A DNA stretch of 64,000 nt from assembly GCA_011605725.1 (NCBI GenBank), contig JAAOZP010000012.1:32001-96000 (forward strand), read 5' to 3'. The DNA comes from Nitrososphaerota archaeon (GTDB lineage: Archaea > Thermoproteota > EX4484-205 > JAAOZP01). Both the position numbers and the translations under genes were made by a program. The notes under the pieces are model-generated. The model was not told where the DNA came from. It did not search any database and worked only from the letters and a program-made list of their open reading frames with translations. Positions 4,442 through 19,874 of this stretch are shown in pieces; position 1 is the first letter of the stretch, and the number at the start of each line of letters is the position of its first letter.

Positions 4442-4566
4442 GTTTCTTCAAGGCTGGCATATGTTTCTTCTTGATAAATCTTTCGTTTACGGGGATGGTT
4501 TTTCTTACTGAGGTGTCTTAATCATGGCGGTGTAGTGTGTGTTAGAAAAATGTAAGGTTTTTATAC

Positions 4567-5772: not shown

Positions 5773-5834
5773 ACATTTTCGACTGTGCCCAGCATGGTGG
5801 AGTTGACTTGCATGCGAAACGCTAAGACTAGAAA

Positions 5835-6803
5835 ATGTTTAATACAGTCTGCTGTCTGTCTCTCGTGACGGTCACGATGCAGGCTCAGAACCCTTTAAGA
5901 AAATACTGCCTGATCCCGGCGACCTTGACTCCTATGAAAGAGGATTTCGAGGTTGACTATGAGCAGCTTGAGGATTACGTAAGGTGGCTGGTGAAACACG
6001 ATATTGGAGGGGTTGCCGTCAATGTCGACACCGGCGAGGGTCCTCATCTTTATCCTGAGGAACGCGTAAACATCCTGAAAGTCTTCTCAGAGATCGTACC
6101 GGGAGGAATACCTGTGATTGCTGGGCTACATGCCCGGAACACTATGGAGGCAGTTAGACTCGGTCTGGAGGCTAAGGAGGCGGGTGCTGACGGGCTGCTT
6201 GTTTTCCCGCATCCAGCCTTCGCGGGTGAGCCGAATGAAAGCGTAATATGCAACTATCACTCGGAAATATCTGGGAAAGTTGACTTACCAATTATCATAT
6301 TTCAACTGCAGCCAGCACTGGGCGGCGTAGACTTTACGCCTGAAACACTGTTAAGGCTTGCCAGCATTAAGAATGTTATAGCGATTAAGGAGGCTTCTTT
6401 CGATGCTAGGAAATTCGTCAACGTTGTTCACGTTTTGAAGAAAGCAAGCAGGAAGATAATGATCCTCACAGGGAATGACAACTTCATATACGAGTCTCTA
6501 GTGCTTGGTGCGGAAGGCGGGTTGCTGGGCTTCGGAACGATAGCTGTAGAACAGCAGGTTGAAATGTTCAACTTAATCGCTAAAGGCAGGCTGACCGAAG
6601 CTAGGGAAATATGGGAGGAGCTGATACCTTTAGAGGAAGCCATTTTCGCTCAGCCAGTTAGGGACTACAGGGCACGTCTAAAAGAGGCGCTCGTAATGAT
6701 GGGAGTATTGAAAACATCGTATGTTAGGCCACCCTTGCAACCGGTGTCGGAGAAGGAGAGAGAAGCCATAAAACAGGCTTTGAGAAGCCTGAGGCTAGTA
6801 TAG
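5835..6803 (+). CDS. DapA/N-acetylneuraminate lyase family aldolase (non-canonical); start may be ATG 5877
   Basis: TIM-barrel DHDPS pattern: DTGEG, AIKEAS Schiff-base Lys, TGND, VRPPL. Confidence 0.88.
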   Translation: MFNTVCCLSLVTVTMQAQNPLRKYCLIPATLTPMKEDFEVDYEQLEDYVRWLVKHDIGGVAVNVDTGEGPHLYPEERVNILKVFSEIVPGGIPVIAGLHARNTMEAVRLGLEAKEAGADGLLVFPHPAFAGEPNESVICNYHSEISGKVDLPIIIFQLQPALGGVDFTPETLLRLASIKNVIAIKEASFDARKFVNVVHVLKKASRKIMILTGNDNFIYESLVLGAEGGLLGFGTIAVEQQVEMFNLIAKGRLTEAREIWEELIPLEEAIFAQPVRDYRARLKEALVMMGVLKTSYVRPPLQPVSEKEREAIKQALRSLRLV

Positions 6804-6807
6804 TGAA

Positions 6808-7995
6808 ATGGCTGGAATAGACCTGTCCGTCAACATATCCGGGGTTGATTTTAAGAATCCGCTGATCGTGGCCTCCGGGCCTCCTACGCTTTCCGCAGAA
6901 CATGTTTTAAAATGTATACGAGCCGGAGCCGCGGGAGCCGTTACTAAAACTATAACTTATGATGTGACGCAGCAGGTTCAGCCTAAGCCGAGGATGCTCG
7001 TAGTTAATCCTGAGGATGCTCTGAGGAACAGGTTCTACTCTTTATACTCTATAGACTTGATGTCGGAGTATAGGCCTGAGCTCTGGCTTAGACAAATCAG
7101 CGAAGCCAAGAAAGAGGCGAAGGCTCATGGAGGCGTGATAATAGCCAGCATTGCCGGCAGAACGTTTGAGGAATGGGAGAAGCTTGCTAAGCTTGTTGAG
7201 GAGGCTGGCGTAGACATGGTTGAGCTTAACCTTTCATGCCCACATTTAGAGAAGAATGTGTTAATGGGAAGAGCCGTATCCTCCAGCCCTGAGAAAGTTT
7301 CAGAAATATTGAAGACGATTAAAAAAGCCACTTCACTACCAGTAATAGGGAAGCTGACACCGCACGGCGCAAACCCTGTTGAACTAGCAAGGATAATGGT
7401 TTCCTCCGGAGTAAACGCTCTTGTTTCAACAGCCAGGTTTCAAGGCTTAATCGTAGACTTGGAAACTATGCGGCCAGTCTCATGGGGAGGCTTCGGAGGA
7501 TACGGGGGGCCTTGGCAAATACCCATTAGCGTCAGCTGGACTGCGCACATAGCCATGGAGAGACTGGGCGTGCCATTGATAGGATCCGGAGGGGTTTCAA
7601 AATGGGAGGACGCTGTACAGCTTATTCTCGCAGGCGCGTCAGCAATTCAGGTGTGCACGGCAATAATGATAAACGGGTTAAAGATTATTCCGGAAATACT
7701 GAGAGGTATTGAAGAATGGATGGTCAGCAAAGGCTTTCAAAACATTGCTGATTTCTCCGGGACTATTATAGACAGGATTGTACCCTTGGAGAAGCTTGAA
7801 AGAAGAAAAAGATTCAGGCTGTATATTGACGCTGAAAAATGCGTGAAGTGCGGAGTCTGCATTAGGGTTTGTCCTTATGGTGCTTTAAAAGCAGTAAACA
7901 CTGCGAGTATTCCGGAACCGGAGCAGGAGGAGTGCGACAACTGCGGCCTATGCCTATCCATATGTCCAAGGAGAGCAATCAGCTTCAAAGAGTGA
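6808..7995 (+). CDS. Dihydroorotate/dihydropyrimidine dehydrogenase-like FMN enzyme (PreA-like) with two C-terminal [4Fe-4S] motifs
   Basis: NPLIVASGP, VTKT, ELNLSCPH, KLTP, GSGGV; CVKCGVCIRVCP and CDNCGLCLSICP. Confidence 0.88.
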   Translation: MAGIDLSVNISGVDFKNPLIVASGPPTLSAEHVLKCIRAGAAGAVTKTITYDVTQQVQPKPRMLVVNPEDALRNRFYSLYSIDLMSEYRPELWLRQISEAKKEAKAHGGVIIASIAGRTFEEWEKLAKLVEEAGVDMVELNLSCPHLEKNVLMGRAVSSSPEKVSEILKTIKKATSLPVIGKLTPHGANPVELARIMVSSGVNALVSTARFQGLIVDLETMRPVSWGGFGGYGGPWQIPISVSWTAHIAMERLGVPLIGSGGVSKWEDAVQLILAGASAIQVCTAIMINGLKIIPEILRGIEEWMVSKGFQNIADFSGTIIDRIVPLEKLERRKRFRLYIDAEKCVKCGVCIRVCPYGALKAVNTASIPEPEQEECDNCGLCLSICPRRAISFKE

Positions 7996-8001
7996 GCTGG
8001 A

Positions 8002-9084
8002 ATGAACGATTCTTCTGGAAGCGAACGATGGGTTCATCCGTTTTGCCACCCGCTTGAAACAAGCAGGAACGGCCCATTCTCCGCCCTAGACGACGGCACC
8101 TTGATGACTATAGATGATGAAGGGTTAAAGACGAGTAGGGACGACGGGAGAACCTGGTCTCCACCTTTATCCACTATCCCGGGAATAAGGAGTGATGAGC
8201 CGGGTTCACACTATATCTTGCAGACGAAGAATAAGATTCTCGTAACCGTCTACCTAGATTTCACGACTTACAGGTTTAGTTGGAACGAGGAGGAGAGTGA
8301 ACCAGGTGACGATTGCCGGCTGGAACTTTGGGCAGCCCGCAGCCTCGACGGCGGCAAGACCTGGGTTGACAGGCAGAGGCTTTTAGAAGGCTATAATGCT
8401 AATTTCTTCGGATTCATCCAGACTAGGAGTGGGAGGATTGTTGCAACTGTTGAACACTTATGTAGGAACCCGGGTCGCTTCGTAGCCTGCTCCCTGTTTT
8501 CAGACGACGATGGGAAAACTTGGAGGAGGAGCAACTTTATCGACCTTGGTGGGCGCGGCCACCATGACGGGGCGATGGAGCCGACCGTAGCGGAGTTGAG
8601 CGACGGACGCTTACTCATGCTTATAAGGACAACTCTTGACTGTTTCTGGCAGGCTTTCTCAGAGGACGGGGGAGAGTACTGGCGGGTCGTTAAGCCCAGC
8701 CAGATAGACGCCAGTAATTCCCCCGGATACCTGTTGAGGTTAAAGAGTAACCGTCTAGTCCTAGTATGGAACCGTTTAAACCCTGAGGGAAGAGTATGGG
8801 AGAAGGCTAAGCCAGGACCGGCTTCAGAAAGACCCGTGTCTTGGCACAGGGAGGAGCTTTCAATAGCTTTCTCTGAGGATGATGGTGAGAACTGGACTAA
8901 GCCGATTGTTATTGCAAGACAGAAAGGTGGACAGTTAAGCTATCCGTATTTGTTTGAGCGTCGCCCCGGTGAGCTCTGGATTACTGCAGGCTTTGCCTTT
9001 AAAAAAGGATGGCGGGAGCCACTGCCGTTGAGGCTTAAGCTGTTTGAAGAGGATTTTTTAAAGAACGTTTTGAAACAGGCTTAG
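8002..9084 (+). CDS. Sialidase-like BNR/Asp-box beta-propeller protein
   Basis: Five Asp-boxes (SRDDGRTW, SLDGGKTW, SDDDGKTW, SEDGGEYW, SEDDGENW), MEPTVAELSDG, SYP. Confidence 0.88.
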   Translation: MNDSSGSERWVHPFCHPLETSRNGPFSALDDGTLMTIDDEGLKTSRDDGRTWSPPLSTIPGIRSDEPGSHYILQTKNKILVTVYLDFTTYRFSWNEEESEPGDDCRLELWAARSLDGGKTWVDRQRLLEGYNANFFGFIQTRSGRIVATVEHLCRNPGRFVACSLFSDDDGKTWRRSNFIDLGGRGHHDGAMEPTVAELSDGRLLMLIRTTLDCFWQAFSEDGGEYWRVVKPSQIDASNSPGYLLRLKSNRLVLVWNRLNPEGRVWEKAKPGPASERPVSWHREELSIAFSEDDGENWTKPIVIARQKGGQLSYPYLFERRPGELWITAGFAFKKGWREPLPLRLKLFEEDFLKNVLKQA

Positions 9085-9167
9085 GGCAAGCCTATTGTCT
9101 AACAGCTTGCCGCATTCAAGTAGAAAAAGTTAATAGAAGCGGAAACCATGAATCCATACGATGAGGA

Positions 9168-10655
9168 ATGAAGAGCACTAGAATAGGTTTAACAATGCTT
9201 CTCGACGAGAGGAAGCATGTTTATCCGAATTATTACGAGAAATGTTACAGGGCTGTTGAAAACTGGGCAAGGTTCATCAGAGATTCGATAAAGTTTTCAG
9301 ATGGCGGTTCGCCGGAGACAGTTGTTTCATCGGAACTCATAAACTCGATAAACACTGCAAGGAGGGTTGGAGAGGAGTTTATAAGCAAGGGAGTTAGGCA
9401 AGTAATCCTTGTTTACAACGTCTGGAATTTCCCATACCTAGTCTGGCCTTTCGTTAACACTCTGGGGAAGGATAAGCCGATACTTAACCTTTCGAACAAC
9501 GAGGGCAAGTATCCAGGCAACGTCGGCCTACTTGCTACGGATGGTGCTTTGAGGCAGGCTGGCTTCAGGACGCATAGGATTATCGGCGATCCTGAAGACC
9601 CGGTGGTGAAGGAGAAGGTGAAGAAATGGGTTATGGCGGCAATAGCTGCGACAAACATTAGGAACGAGGTTTATGGCATGTACGGTGGACATTCTATGGG
9701 AATGGAGACGGGCTATTTCCACCTCGTCCCCATACAGAGGTATTTCGGAACCACTGTAAGCCAGGTTGACCAGCTGCTCCTGGTTGAGAGAATGAAGGAG
9801 ATAGATGATCAGGAGGTTGAAAAAGGCTTGAAATGGATTGAAGAGACAATAGGCGAAATAAAGTATGACGGAAAAATGCTTACGAGAGAAACACTTGGAA
9901 AGCAGATAAGAATGTACCTTGCGGTCAGAAGGATAAACGAGGAGATGGGTTTCGACTTCTGCGGGATTAAGGGTCAGAGAGAGCTTTCCGAACACGTGGT
10001 AATACCCGATGTCGCCGAAATGTTGCTTAACGATCCGTATGACTGGAACGGCCCTAAGGAGCCGACTGTCTGCGCCACCGAAGCCGATTCTTTCGCCGCA
10101 TTAACAATGCAGATACTGAAGTATGTAAGTGGCGGGCTGCCTGTTCTCTTTATGGATGTTCGACTCTACCATCCTGATTTAAACGTGTGGGACTTCTGCA
10201 ACTCCGGTAATCATGCAAGCTGGTATGCTTCAAGAAGCTTCAACCCCAAGGATAATCTGAGAAAGGTTACGCTTCACCCTGCGTTAGAACTCTACTTTAA
10301 AGCAGGAGGAGCATCCGTCTCATTCGACGCCGGCCCAGGAGAACTAACTTTCGCCAGACTAGGCTTGTTCAACGACAAGATTTACATGATAATAGTTAAG
10401 GGTGAAAGCATGGAGCTCGATGAGGAGACAAGGCGGAGGATAAACGCGGAAACTGATCCCACGTGGCCTCACGTACATGCTAGGTTGAAATGCTCGTATG
10501 AAGAGTTTACAGAAATGTTTCCAGCTAACCATATTCACGCCGTCGCTGGAGATCGTGTTCAAGAATTGAAATACTTCTGTGAAATAACTGGCGTGACACC
10601 AATAGTCTTAGGAGGGGAAGAGTATTCGAAGCCTATTTGGGACCTTCTCAAGTAA
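9168..10655 (+). CDS. L-fucose isomerase-like (FucI/AraA family)
   Basis: GHSMGM, GQRELSEH, DPYDWNGPKEP-CATEAD, WPH and ANHIH motifs of L-fucose isomerases. Confidence 0.85.
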   Translation: MKSTRIGLTMLLDERKHVYPNYYEKCYRAVENWARFIRDSIKFSDGGSPETVVSSELINSINTARRVGEEFISKGVRQVILVYNVWNFPYLVWPFVNTLGKDKPILNLSNNEGKYPGNVGLLATDGALRQAGFRTHRIIGDPEDPVVKEKVKKWVMAAIAATNIRNEVYGMYGGHSMGMETGYFHLVPIQRYFGTTVSQVDQLLLVERMKEIDDQEVEKGLKWIEETIGEIKYDGKMLTRETLGKQIRMYLAVRRINEEMGFDFCGIKGQRELSEHVVIPDVAEMLLNDPYDWNGPKEPTVCATEADSFAALTMQILKYVSGGLPVLFMDVRLYHPDLNVWDFCNSGNHASWYASRSFNPKDNLRKVTLHPALELYFKAGGASVSFDAGPGELTFARLGLFNDKIYMIIVKGESMELDEETRRRINAETDPTWPHVHARLKCSYEEFTEMFPANHIHAVAGDRVQELKYFCEITGVTPIVLGGEEYSKPIWDLLK

Positions 10656-10694
10656 TGAAAACACTGGATCAGTTCTTTCTGCATTTGATTTATA

Positions 10695-11204
10695 CTATTT
10701 CTTTTCCAGTTTTCTATAGACCGTTAAGCCTAATAATCCAAAGTAGTATATTATTCCAAACATCCCCATCCAAATGCATATAGTATAGATGTGGAGCGCG
10801 AGCGATGGTTTGTAGAAGGGGTTTGTCATTATCGGATAAAACGGTTTTATGTCTTCGTAAAGCGGAGTATCCATTAGAAGGTGAAGACTTGTTCCTAAAG
10901 CACCTGCGGCAAGGAAGGACCTTAGGTTCAAGTTGTTTGCTTCTAATAAGAATATTTTGTAGAGCCGGCGTAGTAACCTTTCAAGAAGATGCATAACATA
11001 GCCGAAGGCTAAACCCGTTGGTATAGCTAACGGAAAGGTATGTAAGTATCCGTGCAACGGATAATTTAAACCGAAAACTAGAACTAAAAAGGGCTCCACA
11101 TCGATGATGACGTTTGCCAAAATAAACGTTGGAGCATGAAGATATTTTCTAAGCGGCAAACCAAGCCCGAAGCCAGGACCCAAATGAAAGGGGGTAAAGG
11201 GCAC
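10695..11204 (-). CDS. Membrane-bound metal-dependent hydrolase-like protein
   Basis: MPFTPFH start, DVEP, HGYLHT and HLLMD motifs; hydrophobic segments. Confidence 0.75.
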   Translation of the reverse strand: MPFTPFHLGPGFGLGLPLRKYLHAPTFILANVIIDVEPFLVLVFGLNYPLHGYLHTFPLAIPTGLAFGYVMHLLERLLRRLYKIFLLEANNLNLRSFLAAGALGTSLHLLMDTPLYEDIKPFYPIMTNPFYKPSLALHIYTICIWMGMFGIIYYFGLLGLTVYRKLEKK

Positions 11205-11372
11205 AACTTAACCATTATGATATTGGTTATAAAGTTTTATTGATCCGCATGCTTAAAGGTCTTCGAATATTTCTGCAGAAGAATTTACTAGTGTTCTTCA
11301 GGGAGTACTGGTGATGCTGAAACCAGTTTATTCGTAAAATAAACCACTATCTTTATAAACAGGCTGTAGTCT

Positions 11373-12428
11373 TTGAAAAGCATGCAGGCTGATTACGACC
11401 CTTTAAAAATATTTTTAGAAAAGTATGAAAAAGACAGAAGGATCTTCTCCTTCGAAGCTAAAGATCTTTCAGAGTGGAAGTCTTGGCGCCTAGGTTTCAG
11501 AAGGAAGCTTACCGAGCTTATCGGACTTGATTTCTTCGAAAGCGCAGAGATCTCGCCTGAAACAGTGGATAAGAAGCACTATCCCGGCTACATTAGGGAA
11601 AAAGTGATTCTGAAAAGCGACCCCTATACCTTAATACCGGTATACGTGCTGGTTCCGGAAAAGTGTGAAAACACCCTGCCCGCCGTACTGGCTATGCATG
11701 GACATGGTTACGGAAAGGATGACCTAGTAGGCATTTGGGAGGATGGGACTGACCGTGTAAACCCCGTATCGAGAGGCTACCAGAAGGATTTCGCGTTGGA
11801 ACTCGTTAAACGAGGCCTAATCGTGATAGTCCCGGAGCAAAGCGGTTTTGGAGAACGCAGAACCAAGGAGGACATTGCAAAGGGTAGTGAGCAGAGCTCG
11901 TGTAAAATGCTTTCCCTATGGGCTTTGATGATGGGAACTACAACCATGGGTCGGAGAGTATGGGATGCTATCAGGGTGTTAGACTATGTTCTCACCAGGA
12001 AGGATGTTGATCATTCAAGAATAGGCATGATGGGAATATCTGGAGGCGGGACTACAACGCTTTTCACATCAGCTTTGGACGACAGGATTAGGGTCGTCGT
12101 GATAAGCGGCTACCTGAACACTTTCAGGAGCAGCATACTGGCAGTTGACCATTGCATAGACAACTATGTACCTAGTATACTCAGATACTGCGAGATGTAC
12201 GATGTGGCTGCTCTAATCGCGCCGAGGCCACTTTTGGTTGAAAGCGGCTCTAAAGACCCTATTTTCCCAATAGAAGCCACGAGATATGCTTGTGAGAAAG
12301 TACGTAGGGCCTATGCCTTGCTGAAAGCCGAGGATCGGTTTGACACGGACTTCTTCGAGGGAAGGCATGAGATAAGTGGAAGGAAATCATACGAATTCAT
12401 GGCTAAATGGCTGAAAGAAATTAACTAA
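11373..12428 (+). CDS. Alpha/beta hydrolase (acetyl-esterase/dienelactone hydrolase-like)
   Basis: MHGHG, GISGG nucleophile elbow, APRPLL, DPIF, C-terminal GRH. Confidence 0.88.
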   Translation: MKSMQADYDPLKIFLEKYEKDRRIFSFEAKDLSEWKSWRLGFRRKLTELIGLDFFESAEISPETVDKKHYPGYIREKVILKSDPYTLIPVYVLVPEKCENTLPAVLAMHGHGYGKDDLVGIWEDGTDRVNPVSRGYQKDFALELVKRGLIVIVPEQSGFGERRTKEDIAKGSEQSSCKMLSLWALMMGTTTMGRRVWDAIRVLDYVLTRKDVDHSRIGMMGISGGGTTTLFTSALDDRIRVVVISGYLNTFRSSILAVDHCIDNYVPSILRYCEMYDVAALIAPRPLLVESGSKDPIFPIEATRYACEKVRRAYALLKAEDRFDTDFFEGRHEISGRKSYEFMAKWLKEIN

Positions 12429-12537
12429 TATTCCTAGAAACAGAAAGTTACCGCTTTTGGATAAAAATACATTTTTATCAACTAAAAATTAAAAAATACT
12501 TATCTGAAAAATTTCTAATAGAGGTGGAAAATAAAAG

Positions 12538-12660
12538 ATGAAGGTAATTATTCTCGAAAAAGGAAGCAAGGCATGGTATAGGTATACGGCTTGTAACACT
12601 GTAGGATGCGGCCAGAACTGCACCCCTGTCGGATGCGGGAGCTTTATCTCTCCCTATTGA
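12538..12660 (+). CDS. Cys-rich RiPP precursor peptide (40 aa)
   Basis: MKVIILEKGSKAWYRYTACNTVGCGQNCTPVGCGSFISPY*. GAGGTGG RBS at 12521-12527. Ends 23 nt before a radical SAM gene. Below the ORF-track cutoff. Confidence 0.8.
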   Translation: MKVIILEKGSKAWYRYTACNTVGCGQNCTPVGCGSFISPY

Positions 12661-12683
12661 GACTTTAATTCAGAAAAGAGATA

Positions 12684-13586
12684 ATGTCCTCTATTGAGAC
12701 TATCGGTCAAGAAAGGAGATTAAGATTATCTGGATATTGCCTCATCATTCCCTACGATAAAGAAACTTACATACTTTTTCATACATTGAAAGGCGGGATT
12801 GCACTTATTGATGTAGAAGCCAAAAATTTTTTGGAATCCCACAGTAAATCAGGCTTTGCTGCTAGTGAAATCAAAGAATCGCAAGTAAGAGAAGCGGTTC
12901 TCAATTTACTGGAATCAGGGTTTCTTATAGATGAAGAAGTCGATGAATCTGCATTATATAGGTATTTTTTAAACAGGAATCGCTTTGATCATTTTCATGC
13001 AGCCTTCTTGATTTTGACTACCTATGCTTGTAATTTAGCCTGTAAGTACTGTTATCAAGGCTTACAAAAAAGAACCGACATCATGACGCTACATATAGCA
13101 GAAACAGTTAGTAAGTGGATATGCAAGTTGTTAGACTTTAGGAATTCCCGGTCAATCGGTATAATTTTTTATGGAGGTGAACCGTTGTTAAATATAGCAG
13201 CATTAAAATCCGTTAGTAATAATTTATTAAGCTGGAGTAGGCGTACAGGCCGTGAATTATTTACAGGACTTATAACAAATGGAGTATTGCTAACAAGACA
13301 ACTTGCAAATGAATTAGTAGATTCATATGGCTTAAGGCAAGTTCATGTTACGTTTGACGGTAACAAACTTTATCATGATTTAAGGAGATGTTTCCCAAAT
13401 GGAAGCGGCACTTTTGACATCATCTTATCCAACTTACTAAGCTACGTAGATTCCGTGGCTACTATAACTGTGAGAGTAAACTTAGATAAGCATAATGTTG
13501 GAACAGTACCTAAACTATTGGATGTCTTTCAGAGTTACGGTCTTGAAAAGAGCGAGATACGCCTTAGATATAATGGGTTTAAATGA
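12684..13586 (+). pseudogene. Radical SAM peptide maturase (SPASM-type family), C-terminally truncated
   Basis: N-terminal RRE-like region, CNLACKYC, FYGGEPLL, ITNG, TFDG...GSGTFD. It ends before any SPASM cysteines and runs into ABC-ATPase sequence near 13545. Confidence 0.85.
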
Positions 13587-14170
13587 ATTCGAAACTAGTT
13601 ATCCTTCGACACTGTCTTCAGGATATAGACAAAGAACAGCTTTAGCCAGAGGGCTAGCTGTAGACTCCCCAATCTTCTTAGATGAGCCTACGATGAACCT
13701 TGACCCAATTTCAGCAGAGGGTTTCAGAGAGTTCGTGAAGAGCACACTTAGTTTAAGGTTGAGACGCACCATAGTGTGGACGACGCATGTTTTAAGTGAA
13801 GCTGAAAAGCTTGGAGATAGAATTGGAATAATGAAAAAAGGGAAATTTATCATTTGCGATTCTCTGAGAAACTTGATAAAAGGTGCGAATCTGAACACGT
13901 TCAAATTAACGATCTCTGGTATAAATGTGGACGCGTTAGAACAGAAGATCTCTCAATTTAAGAAAAGCTTCGATAAGGGCATTACGGTTCGTCTGCTAAG
14001 CTATGATAACGGAATTACTGAGATAAAAGTGATAGGAGCAGTGGAACACGAGCAAGTAGAAAAAAAACATAAGCTCATGCCTGGACGGCTCTCAAAGGAT
14101 TTTAGAAATCAATGAAGTGAAGCCCTCGTTAGAAGAAGCATTCGTTTTTTATGCTGGTGAATTTCAATGA
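13545..14170 (+). pseudogene. ABC exporter ATP-binding subunit, N-terminally deleted and frameshifted
   Basis: Signature LSSGYRQR, Walker B FLDEPT and H-loop TTH are present; Walker A is missing. Removing one A from the A8 run at 14060-14067 restores ...EVKPSLEEAFVFYAGEFQ*, which overlaps the next ATG. Confidence 0.85.
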
Positions 14171-15081
14171 GCGAACAATATTATCGTAAGTTGTTACGAA
14201 AACCGAGGCTAAGTATAAGGGATTACATTCCAGTATTCTCCGTTTTCGTAAAGCGCTCAGCAAAACAAATAAGTTTCTATAAGACGAGTTTTGTTTTCAA
14301 TATTGTTGGAGTAATTACGGGCGTGCTTTCTTACTATTTCGTGAAATTGACACTGAATCCTTCTGAAATCATAAGCAATTTGGCGCCGTATGGAGGGGAC
14401 TTTATGGCATTTCTTATAGTTGGCATCGCCTTCCAACAATATATAGATCTTGCGCTACACGGGTATTATGAAGGCCTTGCAAGTGCATATTGGGGCTCGA
14501 CCTTAGAACAGTACCTTGTTTCACCGTTGAATCCATTGGTTTTTTCTATAGCACAAGTAATTTGGAGTTTCATCATCAGGAGTCTAAACTTTTTGTTATA
14601 CCTCATAATTGGCATTGCATTGTTTAAAGTGAAGATATTTCCCCTTAGTATTATACCTGTAATTTTGATATTTTGCATTTCAACCATTGCTGTATCTGGA
14701 CTCGGCCTTCTGTCGGCAAGCACTTTTATGCTAATGAACGCAAAGGGTTGGGAGGACCCGATTAGGTGGGCAATCACTACGTTAGAGGGATTAGTCATAG
14801 GAACCTATTATACCCCGGAAATACTTCCGATTCCTTTACAAGTCCTCGGTCTTCTGCTCCCGCAAACTTACGCGTTAGATGCATTAAGACGTTTGCTCAT
14901 AGTGGGTGCTACTTCTGAGAAAGTATTACTTGCACACTCCTTCATCCCAGTAGATCCAATTATAGGTGATATTCTTATCCTACTTGCGATTTCTATTATT
15001 TATGTTCCCCTCGGATACTACGTATTTAACAGAGGAATAAGGTACGCCCAGAAAATTGGTAATTTAACAAGACGGGTCTAG
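14167..15081 (+). CDS. ABC-2 type exporter permease
   Basis: About 6 TM segments, GSTLEQYLVSP, GTYYTPEILP, LPQTYALDALR. Confidence 0.88.
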   Translation: MSEQYYRKLLRKPRLSIRDYIPVFSVFVKRSAKQISFYKTSFVFNIVGVITGVLSYYFVKLTLNPSEIISNLAPYGGDFMAFLIVGIAFQQYIDLALHGYYEGLASAYWGSTLEQYLVSPLNPLVFSIAQVIWSFIIRSLNFLLYLIIGIALFKVKIFPLSIIPVILIFCISTIAVSGLGLLSASTFMLMNAKGWEDPIRWAITTLEGLVIGTYYTPEILPIPLQVLGLLLPQTYALDALRRLLIVGATSEKVLLAHSFIPVDPIIGDILILLAISIIYVPLGYYVFNRGIRYAQKIGNLTRRV

Positions 15082-15100
15082 GACTTTGATTTATCCGATT

Positions 15101-15112
15101 TAGCGCACGCTA
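15101..15112. repeat. Degenerate GC junction run TAGCGCACGCTA
   Basis: One mismatch from TAGCGCGCGCTA; sits where homology with the second permease copy ends. Confidence 0.5.
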
Positions 15113-15238
15113 TGACCCAGTTAAATTTTTTAGATTCTATAAAGGAGGTGGAGAAGTTAACACAGTTCAAAATCTTCATCCAACGTTAAGGACCTTTCTC
15201 ATCCATTGATTGAACGAAATTTATGAGCCAATCCCTAA

Positions 15239-15249
15239 TAGCGCGTGCT
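15239..15249. repeat. Degenerate GC junction run TAGCGCGTGCT
   Basis: One transition from TAGCGCGCGCT, in AT-rich intergenic DNA. Confidence 0.45.
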
Positions 15250-15396
15250 TCTATTTGAGACACTGAAAATGAAATATAAGGAAACCAATTTATGTAGTAT
15301 TAGTCATAAGTAAAGGTACGATTATATGTTTCTCTAAAAGAGGACAAAGATAACCGATTAGGCAAGCCAAGTACCCATCTAAGCTAGGATGAATTT

Positions 15397-16716
15397 TTAC
15401 TCTAACAACCACTTCCATAGCGGTAAGCATTTTACTATTTTATTGTCAACCCTAATCTCATCCTCATAATCCCATGTTATTATCAACAGATCTTTACACC
15501 TTAGCTCTTCACCCGCCTTTATCAAACTTTTGATTTCCCTTTTTTCAATCTCATCCTTGCCAGAAGCATAAGTAACTTGAATCAATTTTTTAACGTTCAT
15601 GCCTTCTTTTAAAACAAAATCGACTTCTCTCTGTTGGTAATCTTTCCAATAATAAACTTCTAGCTCTCTGGACCATAGGCTTCTCCTTCTTAGCAGCTCA
15701 ATCGCAACAACATTTTCCATAATTTTGCCTAAATTTTCGATGAATCTAAAACCCATTAGAGTAAAGAAAGAAATATCGGTCAAATAGTTTTTCTTTGGAG
15801 ACCTTTCTTGTTCCTTAACGCTAAAGGAAAATCTATCGATGAAATTTGTCATTCTTGCAATCTGAAAATATTTGGTAAATCTTTCAGTAGTCTTCAGGGG
15901 TGTTTCTATCTCTCTACTTATACCTCTGATGCTTATTAAGGAAGATGGGTTTGAAATCAAGAATCTTCCTACTGCTCTCAAGTATTCGTCCGCTCTAATC
16001 CTGAATCTCTTTTCTATGTCTTTTATAACTATCGTTTCCCAATAATTTTCAACTATCCTTCTTCTTTTTTCCTCGTTTTTTTCTAAAACGATTTCGGGAA
16101 ATCCTCCAAACTTTAAGTATGATGTCATCCACTCCTTAAATAAAGCTGGTTTTAAAATAATATCTCCTTTGGAGAATTCAATTCCATTAAACAAAAGAAA
16201 TTCCTCAAAGGACAGTGGAAAAATTTCAAAACTTATACATCTTCCAGCCAAAATGCTTTCAAATTCTTCAGCCATTAGCCTTGCACTACTTCCGGAGACG
16301 ATAATTCTTGCCTCGTTTTTTTCATGTAGACTTCTAACGAATTTTTCCCAAAAACTAACTTCTTGAATTTCATCTAGGATTATCAGCGGCTTTCCTCTGA
16401 AATTAATGAATTCCCTATAAGCTTCATAAATTTTGATCAAAAAGTCTTTGTCTAATTTTGCGGGGAATTTCATTTCCTCAAAATTTACATATAGGACTCC
16501 CTCGGCACTTTTAGCTTCGCTAACTTCTTTAGCAACCTGTCTCAAGATGTAAGATTTTCCGCTCCTTCTTATGCCAAAAACCGATATTATTTTGTTTACC
16601 CCATTTAAGTATGAGGTTATTTTTTGAATATACGTCCCTCTTTTCGTACCTATTTCTGCCCCCTCTCCCCAAAAGTTCCAGCCTGAAAGTACCTCCATGA
16701 TTTGCCCTTTCTTCAT
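15397..16716 (-). CDS. AAA+ ATPase, AAA_14 + DUF4143 (COG1373-type)
   Basis: GIRRSGKS, ILDEIQ, VSGSS, GGFPE, PKKNY, ENVV, EVDFV, IQV. Confidence 0.93.
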   Translation of the reverse strand: MKKGQIMEVLSGWNFWGEGAEIGTKRGTYIQKITSYLNGVNKIISVFGIRRSGKSYILRQVAKEVSEAKSAEGVLYVNFEEMKFPAKLDKDFLIKIYEAYREFINFRGKPLIILDEIQEVSFWEKFVRSLHEKNEARIIVSGSSARLMAEEFESILAGRCISFEIFPLSFEEFLLFNGIEFSKGDIILKPALFKEWMTSYLKFGGFPEIVLEKNEEKRRRIVENYWETIVIKDIEKRFRIRADEYLRAVGRFLISNPSSLISIRGISREIETPLKTTERFTKYFQIARMTNFIDRFSFSVKEQERSPKKNYLTDISFFTLMGFRFIENLGKIMENVVAIELLRRRSLWSRELEVYYWKDYQQREVDFVLKEGMNVKKLIQVTYASGKDEIEKREIKSLIKAGEELRCKDLLIITWDYEDEIRVDNKIVKCLPLWKWLLE

Positions 16717-16727
16717 CTTTTCTTAAC

Positions 16728-16763
16728 TATGTGGCACAATATTTAAACTTTTTGTGTCACATA
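16728..16763 (-). promoter_or_regulatory. Promoter of the AAA ATPase with an inverted-repeat operator flanking the TATA box
   Basis: TATGTGGCACAA-N12-TTGTGTCACATA (11/12 inverted repeat). The spacer reads AAAGTTTAAATA on the minus strand, about 25-35 nt before the ATG. Confidence 0.6.
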
Positions 16764-16806
16764 AAGGCTTAAAAGGTACGCTCCTTAACAAAAAAAGGTT
16801 AATGTA

Positions 16807-16817
16807 TAGCGTGTGCT
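16807..16817. repeat. Possible degenerate GC junction run TAGCGTGTGCT
   Basis: Two C-to-T transitions from TAGCGCGCGCT, just upstream of the permease remnant. Confidence 0.3.
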
Positions 16818-16873
16818 TGGCATACCTCAGCAAAGGAAAAGCATGAAGCCGGCTTCAGCCGTGGGAGTGTCAA

Positions 16874-17115
16874 AAGTCCTCGGTCTCCTGCTCCCGCAAG
16901 CTTACGCGTTAGATGCATCGAGGCGTTTGCTCATAGCGGGCTCCACTTCCCAGAAGGTATTACCTATGCGATCCCTTATTCCAGTAGACCCAATTATAGG
17001 TGATGTCGTTGTCCTACTCGCGATTTCCGTCGTTTATGTTCCCCTCGGGTACTATGCATTTCGCAGTGGAATAAGGTATGCGCAAAGAATTGGCAATTTA
17101 ACAAGATGGGTTTAG
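16874..17115 (+). pseudogene. 3' remnant of a second ABC-2 permease (diverged duplicate of about 14840-15093)
   Basis: VLGLLLPQAYALDASRRLLIAG...IGNLTRWV is collinear with the 14167..15081 C-terminus; no 5' part. Confidence 0.85.
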
Positions 17116-17319
17116 AATTCTGATTTGTTCACTTAACAAATAATACAAAATCGTATGTCAGTCTTGGTGCGTGTCTAATTTATTAGAAGTGCATCTTAGT
17201 TCTACCAGCCTTTTTCTGTAAAGGCTCCAGCTCCTGATGTGTTATTTTGACAATATGCGCTTGACACCACCTATCCATAAGAGTTAAATAGTTACACATT
17301 TCCAACTAACGCGAAACAG

Positions 17320-18114
17320 ATGAAAGTATGGATAATGACGGATCTTGAGGGGGTTGCAGGGGTCTTCAGCTTCGAAGAACATGCAAGCCCTAAGGGTAGG
17401 TGGTACGATCTTTCTAGGAAACTCTTGACTCAAGAGGTGAATGCTGCTATTGAGGGCGCGCTGGAACAGGGGGCTAAGGAAGTGCTCGTCGTCGACGGTC
17501 ACGGATATGGCGCGGTAAACATAGAGGAGCTTAATCCTGAGGCTAAGCTTCTCTCGGGTAGGCCACTCCTAATTCCATGGGGTTTGGAGAAAGGGTTTGA
17601 AGCAGCCTTTATGATAGGGCAGCATGCCATGGCGGGTGTGGAGAAGGCGCACCTGAGCCATACTGAGAGCCATACTGCTATTCAAAACGTTTGGATAAAC
17701 GGGGTTAAAGCCGGAGAGATAGCGATAGTTGCTGCAGTAGCAGGGTATTTCGACGTACCACTGGTTTTAGTCACAGGCGATAAGGCTGCATGTCTCGAGG
17801 CGGAGTCTCTAATACCTGGGTTGGAAACCGTGGGTGTAAAAGAAGGGTTAAGCCACGGGGCGGCAGTAAGTGTGACGCCGACTAAGGCTAGGATAATGAT
17901 TAAAAACGGTGCTAAGAATGCTCTTGCAAAAGCGAGCAGCATACTTCCCTATAGAGTGAAAAAGCCGGTTGAGCTCGTAGTCGAGTTTACTGAGGAGAGC
18001 AAGAGTTCTGCTGAAGTACTGTCTAGAAGACCAGGTGTGAAAAGAATCGATACTAGAACAATAAAAATCGAGGAGAATGATCTGCTTGAAGCCCTTAGAA
18101 GATGGTGGATGTAA
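17320..18114 (+). CDS. dppA: D-aminopeptidase, peptidase M55 family
   Basis: DLEGVAG, VDGHG, GQHAMAG, LSHT and VTGD motifs. Confidence 0.9.
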   Translation: MKVWIMTDLEGVAGVFSFEEHASPKGRWYDLSRKLLTQEVNAAIEGALEQGAKEVLVVDGHGYGAVNIEELNPEAKLLSGRPLLIPWGLEKGFEAAFMIGQHAMAGVEKAHLSHTESHTAIQNVWINGVKAGEIAIVAAVAGYFDVPLVLVTGDKAACLEAESLIPGLETVGVKEGLSHGAAVSVTPTKARIMIKNGAKNALAKASSILPYRVKKPVELVVEFTEESKSSAEVLSRRPGVKRIDTRTIKIEENDLLEALRRWWM

Positions 18115-18150
18115 CCGTGTTATGAAACATTGTTACATAAATTTTTCAGG

Positions 18151-18798
18151 TTAACAGTATTTGTGCACCATCGTTAGAAAAGGGTTTGTTTTCTTCTCCC
18201 TCGCGACCGTTGAAGATGGACCATGACCAGGATATATCTTAGTCTCATCGGGGAGAACCATGAGTCTTCCACGGATGGAGTCCATGAGTTTCTCGAATGA
18301 GCCGCCAGGTAGGTCGGTCCTTCCAACTGAGCCTGCGAAAAGAGTATCCCCCGTGAAGACGGCAAGCTGGCCAAGTAGTGATATGCTTCCCATAGTGTGG
18401 CCTGGTGTATGAATGACCTTGAGACTAGTCTTCCCGAAAACTATCATGCTTCCATCGGTTAAAGTCGCATCCGGCGTAATGGGTTTAACTTGAACGCCGA
18501 ATACCGTCTCAACCACCCGTGTGTCCATCAGCATAGAAGCATCATCCTTATGAATTAAAACTAACGCGCCCACTTCCGTCTTTAACCATTCGTTTCCGGA
18601 AGTATGATCCGGATGCCAGTGCGTATTGACAATATACTTGATTTTTGCACTATGTTTCTCCGCTTCATTTATAACGGCTTCAGCCTCCTTCTCGTCGGCA
18701 AACCCAGGGTCTATTACAATCGCTTCCCTCATTTCTGGGCAAATTAGAAGATAACAGTTTGTCTGCAACCTTCCGACTACAATCCTCCTGATAATCAT
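18151..18798 (-). CDS. MBL-fold metallo-hydrolase (glyoxalase II-like)
   Basis: THWHPDH, HTPGHT, FTGDTLF, PGHG. Confidence 0.92.
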   Translation of the reverse strand: MIIRRIVVGRLQTNCYLLICPEMREAIVIDPGFADEKEAEAVINEAEKHSAKIKYIVNTHWHPDHTSGNEWLKTEVGALVLIHKDDASMLMDTRVVETVFGVQVKPITPDATLTDGSMIVFGKTSLKVIHTPGHTMGSISLLGQLAVFTGDTLFAGSVGRTDLPGGSFEKLMDSIRGRLMVLPDETKIYPGHGPSSTVAREKKTNPFLTMVHKYC

Positions 18799-18911
18799 CT
18801 CGAAATATAGAGAACACTTTGTTTAAAAACATTGTGAATAAGATTCGAAGGAGAAGGGGAGCCTAAAAGAGTATTTTAAGCAGGATCTTGTAAGCGAGCA
18901 ATTCCAGACTC

Positions 18912-19874
18912 TTAACAAAAGTTTTTAACTTCTTTTTTCCCGCCTGTCTTCATGAAACGCTTTATTTCTGAGAAATCCTCCGGAACGCTCATCGGACCCA
19001 TTCTAGTCACTTTAAGAGCACCAGCAGCATTAGCAAATTCAAGAAGCTCTCTCAACCTCCAATTCTTCAAGTAGCCGTATACAGCTGCTGCGTCGAAAAC
19101 GTCTCCAGCACCCGTTGGGTCAACCTCCGGGACAATAAAAGCAGGCTCGAAAACAGTCTCCTGCCTACTTAAACCTATTGAGCCTTTTTCACCAATTTTC
19201 ACTATTAAAAGTTTAACCCCATGCTTGAATATTTCTTCAGAAGCTTCCTCTAGACTTCTCTTTCCAGTTAGGTCGAACAGTTCAGCCTTAGAAGGCATCA
19301 CTATCTCTGCAACCTTCAAAACTTTTTCAGATATTTTACTAATCATGCGAGGCTCTATCAGCTCAGCTCTAAGGTTAGGGTCGTAAGTAACCATCATGCC
19401 AGCCCTACTAGCTATTTCAACAGCACGGTAGCAGGATTCCCTTACCTCCTCCCCAATGGAGAGTGTGGACCCCATGATGTGCAGAACCCTAAACATTTTA
19501 ACAAAATCCTCATCCACATCCTCCGGCTTTATTCTAGCGGCCGCGGAACGCTTCAGATTGAACACAAATCTTCTACTGCCGTCGGAAAAGTATGTTACGA
19601 AGGCTATTCCAGTAGTGTATTCTTCATCGGTATACACGTGTGTAATGTCGACATTATCGGCGGCCAGCCTTTTCTTTAAAAGGCTTCCGAAATCATCGTC
19701 ACCAACAGCACCAATTATGGCTGATTTCAAGCCGAGCCTAGAAGCAGCATCCACGAAGATCGCTGGCGCACCACTTGGAAATGGCCCGGCATACTCTCCA
19801 GTTTCGTAATGGGGAGTATCCCTCCCCTTCCTTATGAACTCAACAAGCATCTCGCCGATTGTTAGGACATCCAT
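18912..19874 (-). CDS. PfkB family carbohydrate kinase (likely start ATG 19874)
   Basis: PSGAPAIF, GAVGDDDFG, YDPNLR, DPTGAGDVF. Confidence 0.92.
   Translation of the reverse strand: MDVLTIGEMLVEFIRKGRDTPHYETGEYAGPFPSGAPAIFVDAASRLGLKSAIIGAVGDDDFGSLLKKRLAADNVDITHVYTDEEYTTGIAFVTYFSDGSRRFVFNLKRSAAARIKPEDVDEDFVKMFRVLHIMGSTLSIGEEVRESCYRAVEIASRAGMMVTYDPNLRAELIEPRMISKISEKVLKVAEIVMPSKAELFDLTGKRSLEEASEEIFKHGVKLLIVKIGEKGSIGLSRQETVFEPAFIVPEVDPTGAGDVFDAAAVYGYLKNWRLRELLEFANAAGALKVTRMGPMSVPEDFSEIKRFMKTGGKKEVKNFC

What the first reader, a model, noticed from the sequence alone, without database searches (positions are those of the whole stretch)
12538..15081. Archaeal radical-SAM RiPP cluster with an unannotated Cx4Cx3Cx4C precursor
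Seen: a 40-aa ORF with a strong RBS, missed by the ORF track. It has a leader MKVIILEKGSKAWYRYTA and a core with two repeats C-x-x-V-G-C-G (CNTVGCG, CTPVGCG). It is followed by a radical SAM gene with an RRE-like N-terminus and an ABC-2 exporter, in an AT-richer block. Established: Cys-rich precursor + rSAM/SPASM + ABC exporter is the sactipeptide/ranthipeptide architecture. Inference: a thioether-crosslinked peptide family in a thermophilic archaeon that I do not recognise as described; it may be an antimicrobial or signal.
Basis: partly seen in the sequence, partly recalled or inferred. Interest (0 to 1): 0.8.

Follow-up and report, generated by a model that had tools for sequence, protein, structure and literature searches.

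The report
Broken archaeal cysteine-peptide maturation cluster
A tiny unannotated gene for a four-cysteine peptide is real and travels in several hot-environment archaea with a peptide-modifying radical SAM enzyme and an ABC transporter, but in this genome a 981-base deletion has destroyed the enzyme and the transporter's ATPase, so the local copy is a dead relic of an imported gene island.

Summary
The 40-codon ORF (12538-12660) with a GAGGTGG ribosome-binding site is a real gene. The same peptide family sits directly upstream of the orthologous radical SAM gene in three further, diverged lineages. Four Cys, spaced Cx4Cx3Cx4C, are invariant, and synonymous changes far outnumber replacements.

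The conserved unit has four genes: precursor, RRE-radical SAM-SPASM maturase (465-471 aa), DrrA-like ABC ATPase and ABC-2 permease. All carriers I could place are Thermoproteota-type archaea; this genome's genus is labelled Brockarchaeota.

No Pfam or NCBIfam model matches the peptide. The maturase reaches no curated cut-off (CefB 268/600, TIGR04463 225/525, geopeptide maturase 206/400). Its fold matches the thioether synthase CteB. The leader motif (K/R)(I/V)(I/V)(I/V)LxKG is shared with bacterial geopeptides.

Here the cluster is broken. A 981-bp deletion at a 5-nt microhomology removes the whole SPASM domain and the ATPase's Walker A, and a +1 A frameshift follows. The genes lie in a 4.9-kb AT-rich island that six congeners lack.

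Verdict: an undescribed member of the known ranthipeptide/sactipeptide-type kind, non-functional in this genome. The thioether chemistry is inferred. This scan has not seen the peptide on other DNA.

The parts
12421..17318 (.). 4.9-kb AT-rich island inserted between the Abhydrolase_7 gene (11373-12428) and the Peptidase_M55 gene (17320-18114)
   Evidence: In six congeners (G007, G002, G016, G008, G010, G012) the two flanking genes are only about 90-120 bp apart. Their homology to the window stops near 12420 and resumes at about 17319. GC is 0.33-0.40 inside the island and 0.45-0.51 outside.
12490..12499 (+). TATA-box-like A/T element, 39-48 nt upstream of the precursor ATG (inferred archaeal promoter)
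   Evidence: It is conserved as TAAAAAATAC / TATAAAC / TATATA in the DNA alignment of four diverged loci. Function as a promoter is inferred, not shown.
12521..12527 (+). Shine-Dalgarno-like GAGGTGG, 10 nt before the ATG
   Evidence: Read directly from the sequence. GAGG or GGTG is also present at the same place in L013, L015 and L016.
12538..12660 (+). Precursor peptide gene (40 aa): leader MKVIILEKGSKAWYRYTA and core CNTVGCGQNCTPVGCGSFISPY. It is intact.
   Evidence: It is identical in the sister strain L012 and is a single copy in the genome.
12684..13586 (+). Truncated RRE-radical SAM maturase gene. Residues 1-289 are native (to base 13551), followed by 11 out-of-frame codons and a stop. 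The whole SPASM domain is missing.
   Evidence: It is 97% identical to the intact 471-aa P0001 up to ...SYGLEK. The NCBIfam CefB model matches only positions 2-273 of 444. The CxxxCxxC motif is retained.
13547..13551 (+). Deletion junction with 5-nt microhomology AAAGA. 981 bp present in L012 (8860-9840) are absent here.
   Evidence: blastn of the window against L012, and the junction sequences. The same junction is translated in P0137, from a separate JGI contig.
13552..14170 (+). 3' remnant of the ABC ATPase gene, from residue 144 of 350. It lacks Walker A and the Q-loop, has lost one Phe codon next to Walker B, and carries a +1 frameshift in the A-run at 14060-14067.
   Evidence: Pfam ABC_tran matches only profile positions 84-136. 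Comparison with the intact P0135. The A-run has 8 A here and 7 in L012.
14167..15081 (+). ABC-2 type permease gene (304 aa), open and apparently intact
   Evidence: Weak Pfam ABC2_membrane match here; the L013 orthologue passes the cut-off (29.5 against 26.9). It is 76%, 63% and 63% identical to the L013, L015 and L016 permeases.
15397..16716 (-). AAA_14/DUF4143 ATPase gene inside the island. It is not part of the conserved four-gene unit.
   Evidence: Pfam matches. It is present in L012 but not beside the cluster in L013, L015 or L016.
16873..17115 (+). Remnant of a second, GC-richer permease copy: the last 80 codons only
   Evidence: It is 76% identical to the C-terminus of the full permease and is also present in L012.

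Best explanation
The region is a decayed copy of a horizontally acquired four-gene archaeal RiPP cluster.

In intact relatives the proposed mechanism runs as follows. A 39-45-aa precursor is made. Its N-terminal beta-strand motif, M(K/R)x(I/V)ILxKG, is bound by the RRE domain of a 465-471-aa radical SAM/SPASM enzyme. Using SAM cleavage and two auxiliary Fe-S clusters, the enzyme cross-links the four invariant cysteines of the core (C-x4-C-x3-C-x4-C). The most likely products are short-range thioether (ranthionine-type) rings from each Cys to a residue about three positions downstream: V22, N27, V/I/T31 and F/N36. A DrrAB-like ABC-2 transporter then exports the product or protects the producer.

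Shown: gene content, conservation, domain architecture, fold, and the lesions. Inferred: leader-RRE binding, thioether chemistry, ring topology, export, and the biological role.

In this genome the pathway is dead. A 981-bp microhomology-mediated deletion fused the maturase at residue 289 to the ATPase at residue 144. This removed all seven SPASM cysteines and Walker A. A +1 frameshift has since hit the ATPase remnant. Only the precursor and permease reading frames survive.

The stated confidence covers the whole reading. By part, I put about 0.9 on a real RiPP-type family that is broken here, and about 0.55 on thioether chemistry.
For: Real gene and conserved unit:
- The peptide, rSAM, ATPase and permease are collinear in L012, L013/L014, L015 and L016, with different flanks.
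- The maturase, ATPase and permease diverge in step, at about 75% and 57-63% identity. The peptide follows the same order (70%, 53%, 45%).
- Peptide codons show pS 0.47-0.85 against pN 0.05-0.29.

Maturase type:
- Full-length homologues carry CxxxCxxC and the seven-Cys SPASM motif, and they pass TIGR04085 (56-59 bits against a cut-off of 27).
- The AlphaFold model has pLDDT 93. It matches the SCIFF thioether synthase CteB over about 470-480 columns, N-terminal domain included (E 4e-22, TM 0.67-0.75). CteB is also the best PDB match by sequence.
- The best curated neighbours are Cys-peptide maturases: CefB, TIGR04463, geopeptide, Clo7bot and PapB.
- The TIGR04463 member CrpC was shown to install ranthionine links at CAGM, CAVD and CPLV motifs (PMC13692751).

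Leader: the motif is shared with peptides next to bona fide geopeptide maturases in Nitrospirota.

Broken here:
- define the lesions.
- No second copy of the maturase or the peptide exists in the genome.

Island: six congeners lack it, and it is AT-rich.
Against: - No chemistry has been measured for this family or for its nearest named families, except TIGR04463/CrpC, of which this enzyme is not a member.
- No curated maturase model reaches its cut-off.
- There is no protease gene in the unit, so whether and where the leader is removed is unknown.
- Invariant Tyr14 and Tyr16 in four of the five peptides could point to a different (C-C) cross-link.
- The genome is a 20-contig assembly at 93% completeness, so an intact allele could coexist in the population. 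P0001 and L012 show that such alleles exist in close strains.
Confidence: 0.62

Rival explanations
1. The family is a RiPP system, but the modification is not a Cys thioether. It could be an aromatic C-C cyclophane at the conserved Y-x-Y motif, an epimerisation, or another radical SAM/SPASM reaction, with the cysteines serving as metal ligands or forming disulfides in the product.
For: - Y14 and Y16 are invariant in the four aligned peptides.
- SPASM enzymes of similar fold carry out C-C links: SuiB is a top structural match.
- The core motif YR(V/Y)xACNxVGCG also occurs in FN3-type repeats of P0123. There the two Cys may flank a hairpin, which is my reading, so CxxxxC could simply be a disulfide turn.
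Against: - P0124, the most divergent member, keeps the Cys pattern but lacks YxY.
- Cyclophane-forming families score far lower (YhhB 63-85 bits, FxsB 51-61) than the Cys-peptide maturases (205-268 bits).
- The best structural and sequence match in the PDB is the thioether synthase CteB.
Confidence: 0.22
2. The local copy is still used. The intact precursor and permease genes might yield an unmodified Cys4 peptide, or another radical SAM/SPASM enzyme of the genome might modify the peptide in trans.
For: - The precursor and permease frames are intact and nearly identical to those of the sister strain.
- The genome holds other rSAM/SPASM genes on contigs C13 and C3.
Against: - Those paralogues are distant: 46-61 bits to the CefB model, and below E 1e-20 to P0001.
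- The transporter has no working ATPase.
- The window and L012 differ by under 1% in the flanks, so identity of the 123-bp ORF says nothing about selection.
- Other alleles of the same population carry further independent lesions in the maturase, which is the pattern of decay.
Confidence: 0.07
3. The deletion is an assembly or binning artefact, and the organism really carries an intact cluster.
For: - The genome is a draft of 20 contigs.
- Intact or near-intact alleles exist in close strains: P0001, and L012 at 99% identity.
Against: - The same junction peptide (...VLKRARYALDIMG...) is encoded on a separate 1.8-kb JGI contig, P0137. That contig lacks the window's A-run frameshift, so it is not the same record.
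- The junction is a clean 5-nt microhomology with 99% identical flanks on both sides.
Confidence: 0.06
4. The 40-codon ORF is a chance open frame and not a gene.
For: It is short, and it is missing from most gene calls. Only two clusters in 5.8 billion proteins match it.
Against: - It is conserved in position, length, leader motif and Cys pattern across loci whose maturases are only 57-75% identical.
- Synonymous sites are near saturation while replacements are few.
- The Shine-Dalgarno site and a TATA-like element are conserved.
Confidence: 0.01

Closest known systems
Geopeptide system (NCBIfam TIGR04229 peptide, TIGR04280 radical SAM maturase), in Geobacter- and Nitrospirota-type bacteria. 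I found no published biochemistry for it in the library.
   Same: - A short precursor (about 30-40 aa) lies directly upstream of an RRE-rSAM-SPASM enzyme.
- The leader motif (K/R)(I/V)(I/V)(I/V)LxKG is shared.
- 47 of the 64 nearest database homologues of the maturase match TIGR04280 at E 1e-60 or better.
   Different: - The maturase scores 204-206 bits against a cut-off of 400, at 28-31% identity.
- The geopeptide core is a single CC motif, not Cx4Cx3Cx4C.
- The geopeptide model matches only one of the Nitrospirota peptides, weakly, and none of the archaeal ones.
- The carriers here are archaea.
CefA/CefB 'Cys-every-fifth' system (NCBIfam NF038107 maturase)
   Same: - It is the best-scoring curated model for the maturase (265-268 bits, nearly full length).
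- The family name implies a core with Cys at a period of five, close to the 5-4-5 spacing seen here.
   Different: - The score is less than half the cut-off of 600.
- None of the 64 nearest homologues reaches it either (best E 8.8e-127).
- No NCBIfam family at all matches the peptides.
- I could not inspect CefA sequences.
CrpC/CrpA of Methanococcus voltae (TIGR04463), an archaeal SPASM radical SAM enzyme shown to install ranthionine cross-links (PMC13692751)
   Same: - It is archaeal, with RRE, rSAM and seven-Cys SPASM domains.
- It is the second-best curated model (225-246 bits).
- In its substrate motifs (CAGM, CAVD, CPLV) the Cys precedes the acceptor by about three residues, comparable to CNTV and CTPV here.
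   Different: - The score is below the cut-off of 525.
- The CrpA substrate is a 29-kDa repeat protein, not a 40-aa peptide.
- That paper describes no transporter genes in the cluster.
SCIFF/CteA with CteB (Clostridia), a structurally characterised ranthipeptide-type thioether synthase (PDB 5WGG/5WHY)
   Same: - It is the best structural match (TM 0.67-0.75 over the full length) and the best sequence match in the PDB.
- It has the same three-domain layout, and its precursor is a short Cys-rich peptide.
   Different: - Sequence identity is only 19-22%.
- The SCIFF maturase model TIGR03974 scores 94-103 bits against a cut-off of 425.
- By my recollection the SCIFF core is a six-Cys pattern, unlike this one.

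Membership tests
Radical SAM superfamily (PF04055) | CxxxCxxC cluster-binding motif and a Pfam score above the gathering threshold | tested here: met
   The window protein scores 40.1 bits against a cut-off of 29.5, with the C-x3-C-x2-C motif at residues 116, 120 and 123 (P0001 numbering 115, 119, 122).
SPASM-domain radical SAM enzymes (TIGR04085) | C-terminal seven-Cys motif (Cx9-15Gx4C ... Cx2Cx5Cx3C ... C) that binds two auxiliary clusters | tested here: not met
   This row is for the window gene, where the domain is deleted: the gene ends at native residue 289. Intact orthologues P0001 and P0003 do meet it, at 56-59 bits against a cut-off of 27, with Cys at 344, 363, 411, 414, 420, 424 and 440.
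CefB, Cys-every-fifth maturase (NF038107) | Whole-protein score at or above the curated cut-off of 600 bits | tested here: not met
   Intact orthologues score 265-268 bits; the window stump scores 184.6.
TIGR04463 (CrpC family) | Whole-protein score at or above 525 bits, with a large Cys-rich protein substrate | tested here: not met
   The score is 225-246 bits, and the substrate here is a 39-45-aa peptide.
Geopeptide maturase (TIGR04280) and geopeptide (TIGR04229) | Maturase score at or above 400 bits, and peptide score at or above 30 bits | tested here: not met
   The maturase scores 204-206 bits. The archaeal peptides give no hit. Only the leader motif is shared.
PapB ranthipeptide maturase (NF047865) and SCIFF maturase (TIGR03974) | Score at or above 340 bits (PapB) or 425 bits (SCIFF) | tested here: not met
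   The scores are 118-122 bits for PapB and 94-103 bits for SCIFF.
Ranthipeptide/sactipeptide RiPP class | Precursor with a leader and a Cys-bearing core, encoded beside an RRE-containing rSAM/SPASM enzyme | tested here: met
   This is met in the intact relatives. Adjacency holds in all four lineages. The three-domain fold matches CteB, including its N-terminal domain.
Ranthipeptide/sactipeptide RiPP class | Radical SAM-installed thioether from Cys sulfur to an alpha carbon (sacti) or a beta/gamma carbon (ranthi) of an acceptor residue | not testable with these tools
   This needs mass spectrometry or NMR of the product. Active-site 'catalytic proximity' profiling against reference synthases could not be run, because no reference set was available.
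ABC-2 (DrrAB-type) exporter | ATPase with Walker A, signature and Walker B motifs, together with an ABC2_membrane permease | tested here: not met
   This row is for the window, where the ATPase lacks residues 1-143 (Walker A is at 64-71) and is frameshifted. Relatives meet the domain models: ABC_tran at 96.9 bits for P0135 and ABC2_membrane at 29.5 bits for L013. The DrrA subfamily model scores 244 bits against a cut-off of 312.

The most novel reading that the evidence does not exclude
The intact relatives may make a chemically new archaeal natural product. It would be a compact peptide with four consecutive small rings, each from a Cys to the residue three positions downstream, or with a non-thioether cross-link. 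It would be the first characterised small rSAM RiPP from Thermoproteota-type archaea. Its leader code, shared with bacterial geopeptides, would mark a cross-domain RRE-leader superfamily. The repeated independent destruction of the maturase in one Brockarchaeota population might reflect selection against production after horizontal acquisition.
Probability: 0.2. Interest if true: 0.65.

Novelty: new member of a known kind. Interest (0 to 1): 0.38.

Why it matters
Archaeal RiPPs are predicted in the thousands, but very few have been characterised. According to PMC12144867 and PMC13692751, the characterised examples are haloarchaeal lanthipeptides and the protein-modifying enzyme CrpC.

This work defines a clean, minimal four-gene family. 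It has five distinct precursor sequences, intact maturases available for expression, and a leader motif shared with the equally uncharacterised geopeptides. That makes it a tractable target for co-expression and mass spectrometry.

For genome annotation there are three points:
- The 40-aa gene is real and is missed by gene callers.
- The two neighbouring 'genes' in this genome are fusion debris from a deletion.
- The island boundaries are exact.

The local copy has no biosynthetic value.

Tried and rejected
The genomic contexts of P0001, P0005-P0008 and P0124, and the DNA of the alternative deletion alleles, could therefore not be fetched. I used the search for related loci and the genome search instead.
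- The genome-contig scan found no close relative of the maturase, only hits at 31% identity or less.
- The peptide profile found only G000 among 401 genomes of the phylum. Three hits at E of about 0.005 are short and taken as chance.
- Pfam and NCBIfam gave nothing for any of the peptides.
- Literature searches for Cys-every-fifth, NF038107, geopeptide, TIGR04280, OhkG/FlmE (as a radical SAM enzyme) and Clo7bot found no relevant paper. 'Brockarchaeota' together with 'biosynthetic gene cluster' found none.
- I looked upstream of the more distant archaeal relatives (L007-L010, L017) for Cys-rich ORFs and found none convincing.
- The bacterial sigma-70 promoter and terminator scanner was not used, because the organism is an archaeon.
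- I considered a nested sactipeptide-type hairpin topology and rejected it. The stretch after the last Cys is short (6-12 aa) and poorly conserved, so it cannot supply four acceptor residues.
- I considered reading the permease remnant as evidence of an older resident cluster. It lies inside the island, and six congeners have nothing at that site. It therefore arrived with the island or in a second insertion, and I left this open.
Full report
**1. The observation**

GAGGTGG lies at 12521-12527, 10 nt upstream of the ATG.

Three genes follow:
- 12684-13586 is a radical SAM protein (PF04055, 40 bits; Fer4_12).
- The frame 13495-14115 matches only the last third of the ABC_tran profile.
- 14167-15081 is a weak ABC2_membrane match.

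GC is 0.33-0.40 from about 12450 to 16750 and 0.45-0.51 on either side.

**2. The local genes are broken**

NCBIfam aligns the 300-aa radical SAM product to positions 2-273 of the 444-position CefB model and finds no SPASM domain. A database search found P0001, an intact 471-aa protein that is 97% identical up to ...SYGLEK and then diverges.

A metagenome scan recovered L012, a 438-kb contig from a sister strain with the same flanking genes. The window aligns to it as follows:

| Window | L012 | Identity |
|---|---|---|
| 9001-13551 | 4307-8859 | 99.3% |
| 13547-19000 | 9836-15290 | 98.6% |

So 981 bp of L012 (8860-9840) are missing from the window. The junction is GAAAAGA|GCGAGA, where AAAGA occurs on both sides in L012.

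The deletion has these effects:
- It removes maturase residues 290 to the end, including all seven SPASM cysteines (P0001 positions 344, 363, 411, 414, 420, 424, 440).
- It removes ATPase residues 1-143, including Walker A at 64-71.
- The fusion is out of frame and stops after 11 codons.

The ATPase remnant carries two further lesions. Its A-run at 14060-14067 has 8 A where L012 has 7, which shifts the frame near the C-terminus. It has also lost one Phe codon next to Walker B.

The deletion junction is independently assembled. P0137, from a 1.8-kb JGI contig, encodes the same junction peptide but lacks the A-run frameshift.

The genome has no other copy of the peptide. It has no other close copy of the maturase.

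L012 itself shows two single-base homopolymer shifts, one at the maturase stop and one in a G-run of the ATPase. They may be sequencing errors: P0001 and P0135 are the same genes with open frames.

**3. The peptide is a real gene in a conserved four-gene unit**

Four further loci carry orthologous maturases:

| Locus | Maturase identity to P0001 | Notes |
|---|---|---|
| L013, L014 | 75% | same lineage |
| L015 | 58% | L015 and L016 maturases are 91% alike |
| L016 | 57% | |

In every one, a 39-45-aa ORF sits 10-25 nt upstream of the maturase:
- L013/L014: MRAIILERGSRTWYRYTGCNTVGCGLNCTPIGCSGNYYC
- L015: MRIVILRKGKITNYAYSGCSSVGCAQNCSPTGCNVNFPFVSKQRY
- L016: MKIVILRKGKITNYAYTGCNSVGCSQNCSPTGCNVNCPTYYN

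The invariant positions are M1, I5, L6, G9, Y14, Y16, C19, V22, G23, C24, N27, C28, P30, G32 and C33.

Codon comparison over the 33 gap-free codons shows purifying selection:

| Pair | Synonymous | Replacement | Measure |
|---|---|---|---|
| window vs L013 | 18 | 8 | pS 0.85, pN 0.10 |
| L015 vs L016 | 10 | 4 | dN/dS about 0.07 |

In each locus the maturase is followed, with overlapping stop and start codons, by a 346-354-aa DrrA-like ATPase and a 304-305-aa ABC-2 permease. The three proteins diverge in parallel, at about 75% and 57-63% identity. The flanking genes differ between lineages, so the four genes move as a unit. A TATA-like element and a Shine-Dalgarno site upstream of the peptide are conserved.

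Exhaustive protein searches find few members:

| Search | Peptide hits |
|---|---|
| 5.8 billion proteins | P0121 and P0122 only |
| 1.84 billion cluster representatives | also P0124, MKLIVLRKRKVDGFKACTCNSVGCGVNCGSQVGCNVNTK |

Small ORFs are often not called as genes, so these counts are lower bounds.

**4. Who carries it**

- A same-genus genome (G006) has proteins that NCBI labels Candidatus Brockarchaeota archaeon. That phylum was described from hot-spring and Guaymas Basin sediments (PMC8065059).
- Proteins flanking the cluster in L013 cluster with proteins labelled Thermoproteota archaeon.
- Proteins flanking the cluster in L016 are labelled Thermoprotei archaeon.
- Among 401 species genomes of the phylum, only the window's genome has the peptide.

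**5. It is an imported island here**

In six congeners the Abhydrolase_7 gene and the Peptidase_M55 gene are 90-120 bp apart. Homology to the window ends at about 12420 and resumes at about 17319. The island is therefore about 4.9 kb.

It holds the cluster, an AAA_14/DUF4143 ATPase gene on the minus strand, and an 80-codon remnant of a second permease.

| Sequence | GC |
|---|---|
| The cluster in the window | 0.39 |
| The whole window (host background) | 0.46 |
| L013, L015 and L016 loci | 0.34-0.36 |

This fits acquisition from a low-GC archaeon.

**6. What the maturase is**

The AlphaFold model of P0001, built with 64 homologues, has pLDDT 93 and pTM 0.91. Its N-terminus has four beta-strands and helices before the radical SAM barrel.

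Foldseek places CteB (5WGG/5WHY) first, at E 4e-22 and TM 0.67-0.75 over about 470-480 columns. That covers the whole length, including the N-terminal peptide-binding domain. TigE, SuiB, anSME and ChlB follow. CteB is also the best PDB match by sequence. No Pfam model matched that domain.

No curated NCBIfam family is reached:

| Family | Score (bits) | Cut-off (bits) |
|---|---|---|
| CefB | 265-268 | 600 |
| TIGR04463 | 225-246 | 525 |
| Geopeptide maturase | 204-206 | 400 |
| Clo7bot | 168-190 | 600 |
| FlmE/OhkG | 161-168 | 500 |
| PapB | 118-122 | 340 |
| SCIFF | 94-103 | 425 |

Of the 64 nearest database homologues, 47 match the geopeptide maturase model at E 1e-60 or better, and none is a true CefB.

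Bona fide geopeptide maturases in Nitrospirota (544-564 bits) are preceded by peptides such as MKRIVILDKGVEKKDLTDGKCCANPANSAHM. These share the leader motif (K/R)(I/V)(I/V)(I/V)LxKG with the archaeal peptides.

G006, of the same genus, has a related cluster. Its maturase is 35% identical, and its 51-aa precursor, MKFVPLQKGS...TCCGSN...CTPVKG, has a similar leader.

**7. Mechanism**

The only biochemistry near this clade is for CrpC, a TIGR04463 member. It installs ranthionine links on Cys-rich CrpA at the motifs CAGM, CAVD, PCAGD and CPLV, with the Cys preceding the acceptor (PMC13692751).

By analogy, and because the tail after the last Cys is too short and too variable for a nested hairpin, I propose four short rings. 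Each would run from C19, C24, C28 or C33 to the residue three positions on: V22, N27, V/I/T31 and F/N36. This is inference.

There is no protease gene, so the fate of the leader is unknown. The transporter may export the product, confer immunity, or both.

**8. Comparison and novelty**

Predicted rSAM RiPP clusters (ranthipeptide or sactipeptide calls) are already reported as widespread in archaea, and almost none has been characterised (PMC12144867). This scan has noted many loci of the same kind, but not this peptide.

The family is therefore a new member of a known kind. It has an unmodelled precursor and a maturase clade that sits between the CefB, TIGR04463 and geopeptide families.

In this window it is a pseudogenised relic, so I score interest as modest.

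Noticed in passing
Proteins P0139, P0140, P0142, P0144 and P0146 (cluster of P0001); they correspond to window 12684-14115: Other metagenome contigs of the same species carry different lesions in the same two genes. One allele joins maturase residue 208 to the ATPase at ...WTTHVLSEAEK through an inserted 'ERAR' (P0139 and P0140 differ in frame just after it). Another has a frameshift at residue 154 plus an internal deletion, with an inserted 'ARARA'. Back-translated, these inserts would be GCGCGC-type filler, as in the end-joining scars noted elsewhere in this genome (e1-5613437). The window's own junction has no filler, only a 5-nt microhomology. I inferred this from the protein sequences only, because the DNA could not be fetched.
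   Followed up: partly
I confirmed those two by eye in the sequence. I did not read the third site near 16807, and I did not study any of them.
   Followed up: no
L013 11306-12433 and L014 6774-7901: In this lineage only, a GT28-family glycosyltransferase gene (Glyco_tran_28_C, 54 bits) overlaps the permease stop by 10 nt. The peptide might be glycosylated there, or the gene may be an unrelated neighbour.
   Followed up: partly
P0123 (411 aa) compared with window 12574-12615: The core-proximal stretch WYRYTACNTVGCG resembles the repeated motif (H)(Y/F)WYRVAACNAVGCG found in four repeats of a bacterial-looking secreted protein, P0123. I take these to be FN3-type repeats, from recollection of the YxYRVxAxNxxGxG strand motif. 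This is either coincidence or a shared beta-hairpin-forming sequence.
   Followed up: no
L006 1361-4313 (G006, same genus): This is a second, distantly related cluster in a congener: a 51-aa precursor with a similar leader but a CC...C core, a 443-aa rSAM/SPASM maturase (35% identity), an ATPase and a permease. NCBI annotates the enzymes as Brockarchaeota proteins. The peptide ORF appears to be uncalled.
   Followed up: partly
Window 16873-17115: An 80-codon C-terminal remnant of a second permease copy lies just before the M55 gene. It is 76% identical to the full copy and GC-richer. It is also present in L012. It lies inside the island, so it records an earlier or compound insertion.
   Followed up: partly
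Window 15397-16716 (-): An AAA_14/DUF4143 ATPase gene occupies the most AT-rich part of the island (GC 0.32-0.36). It is absent from the cluster's neighbourhood in the other lineages. It may be cargo of the element that brought the island.
   Followed up: no
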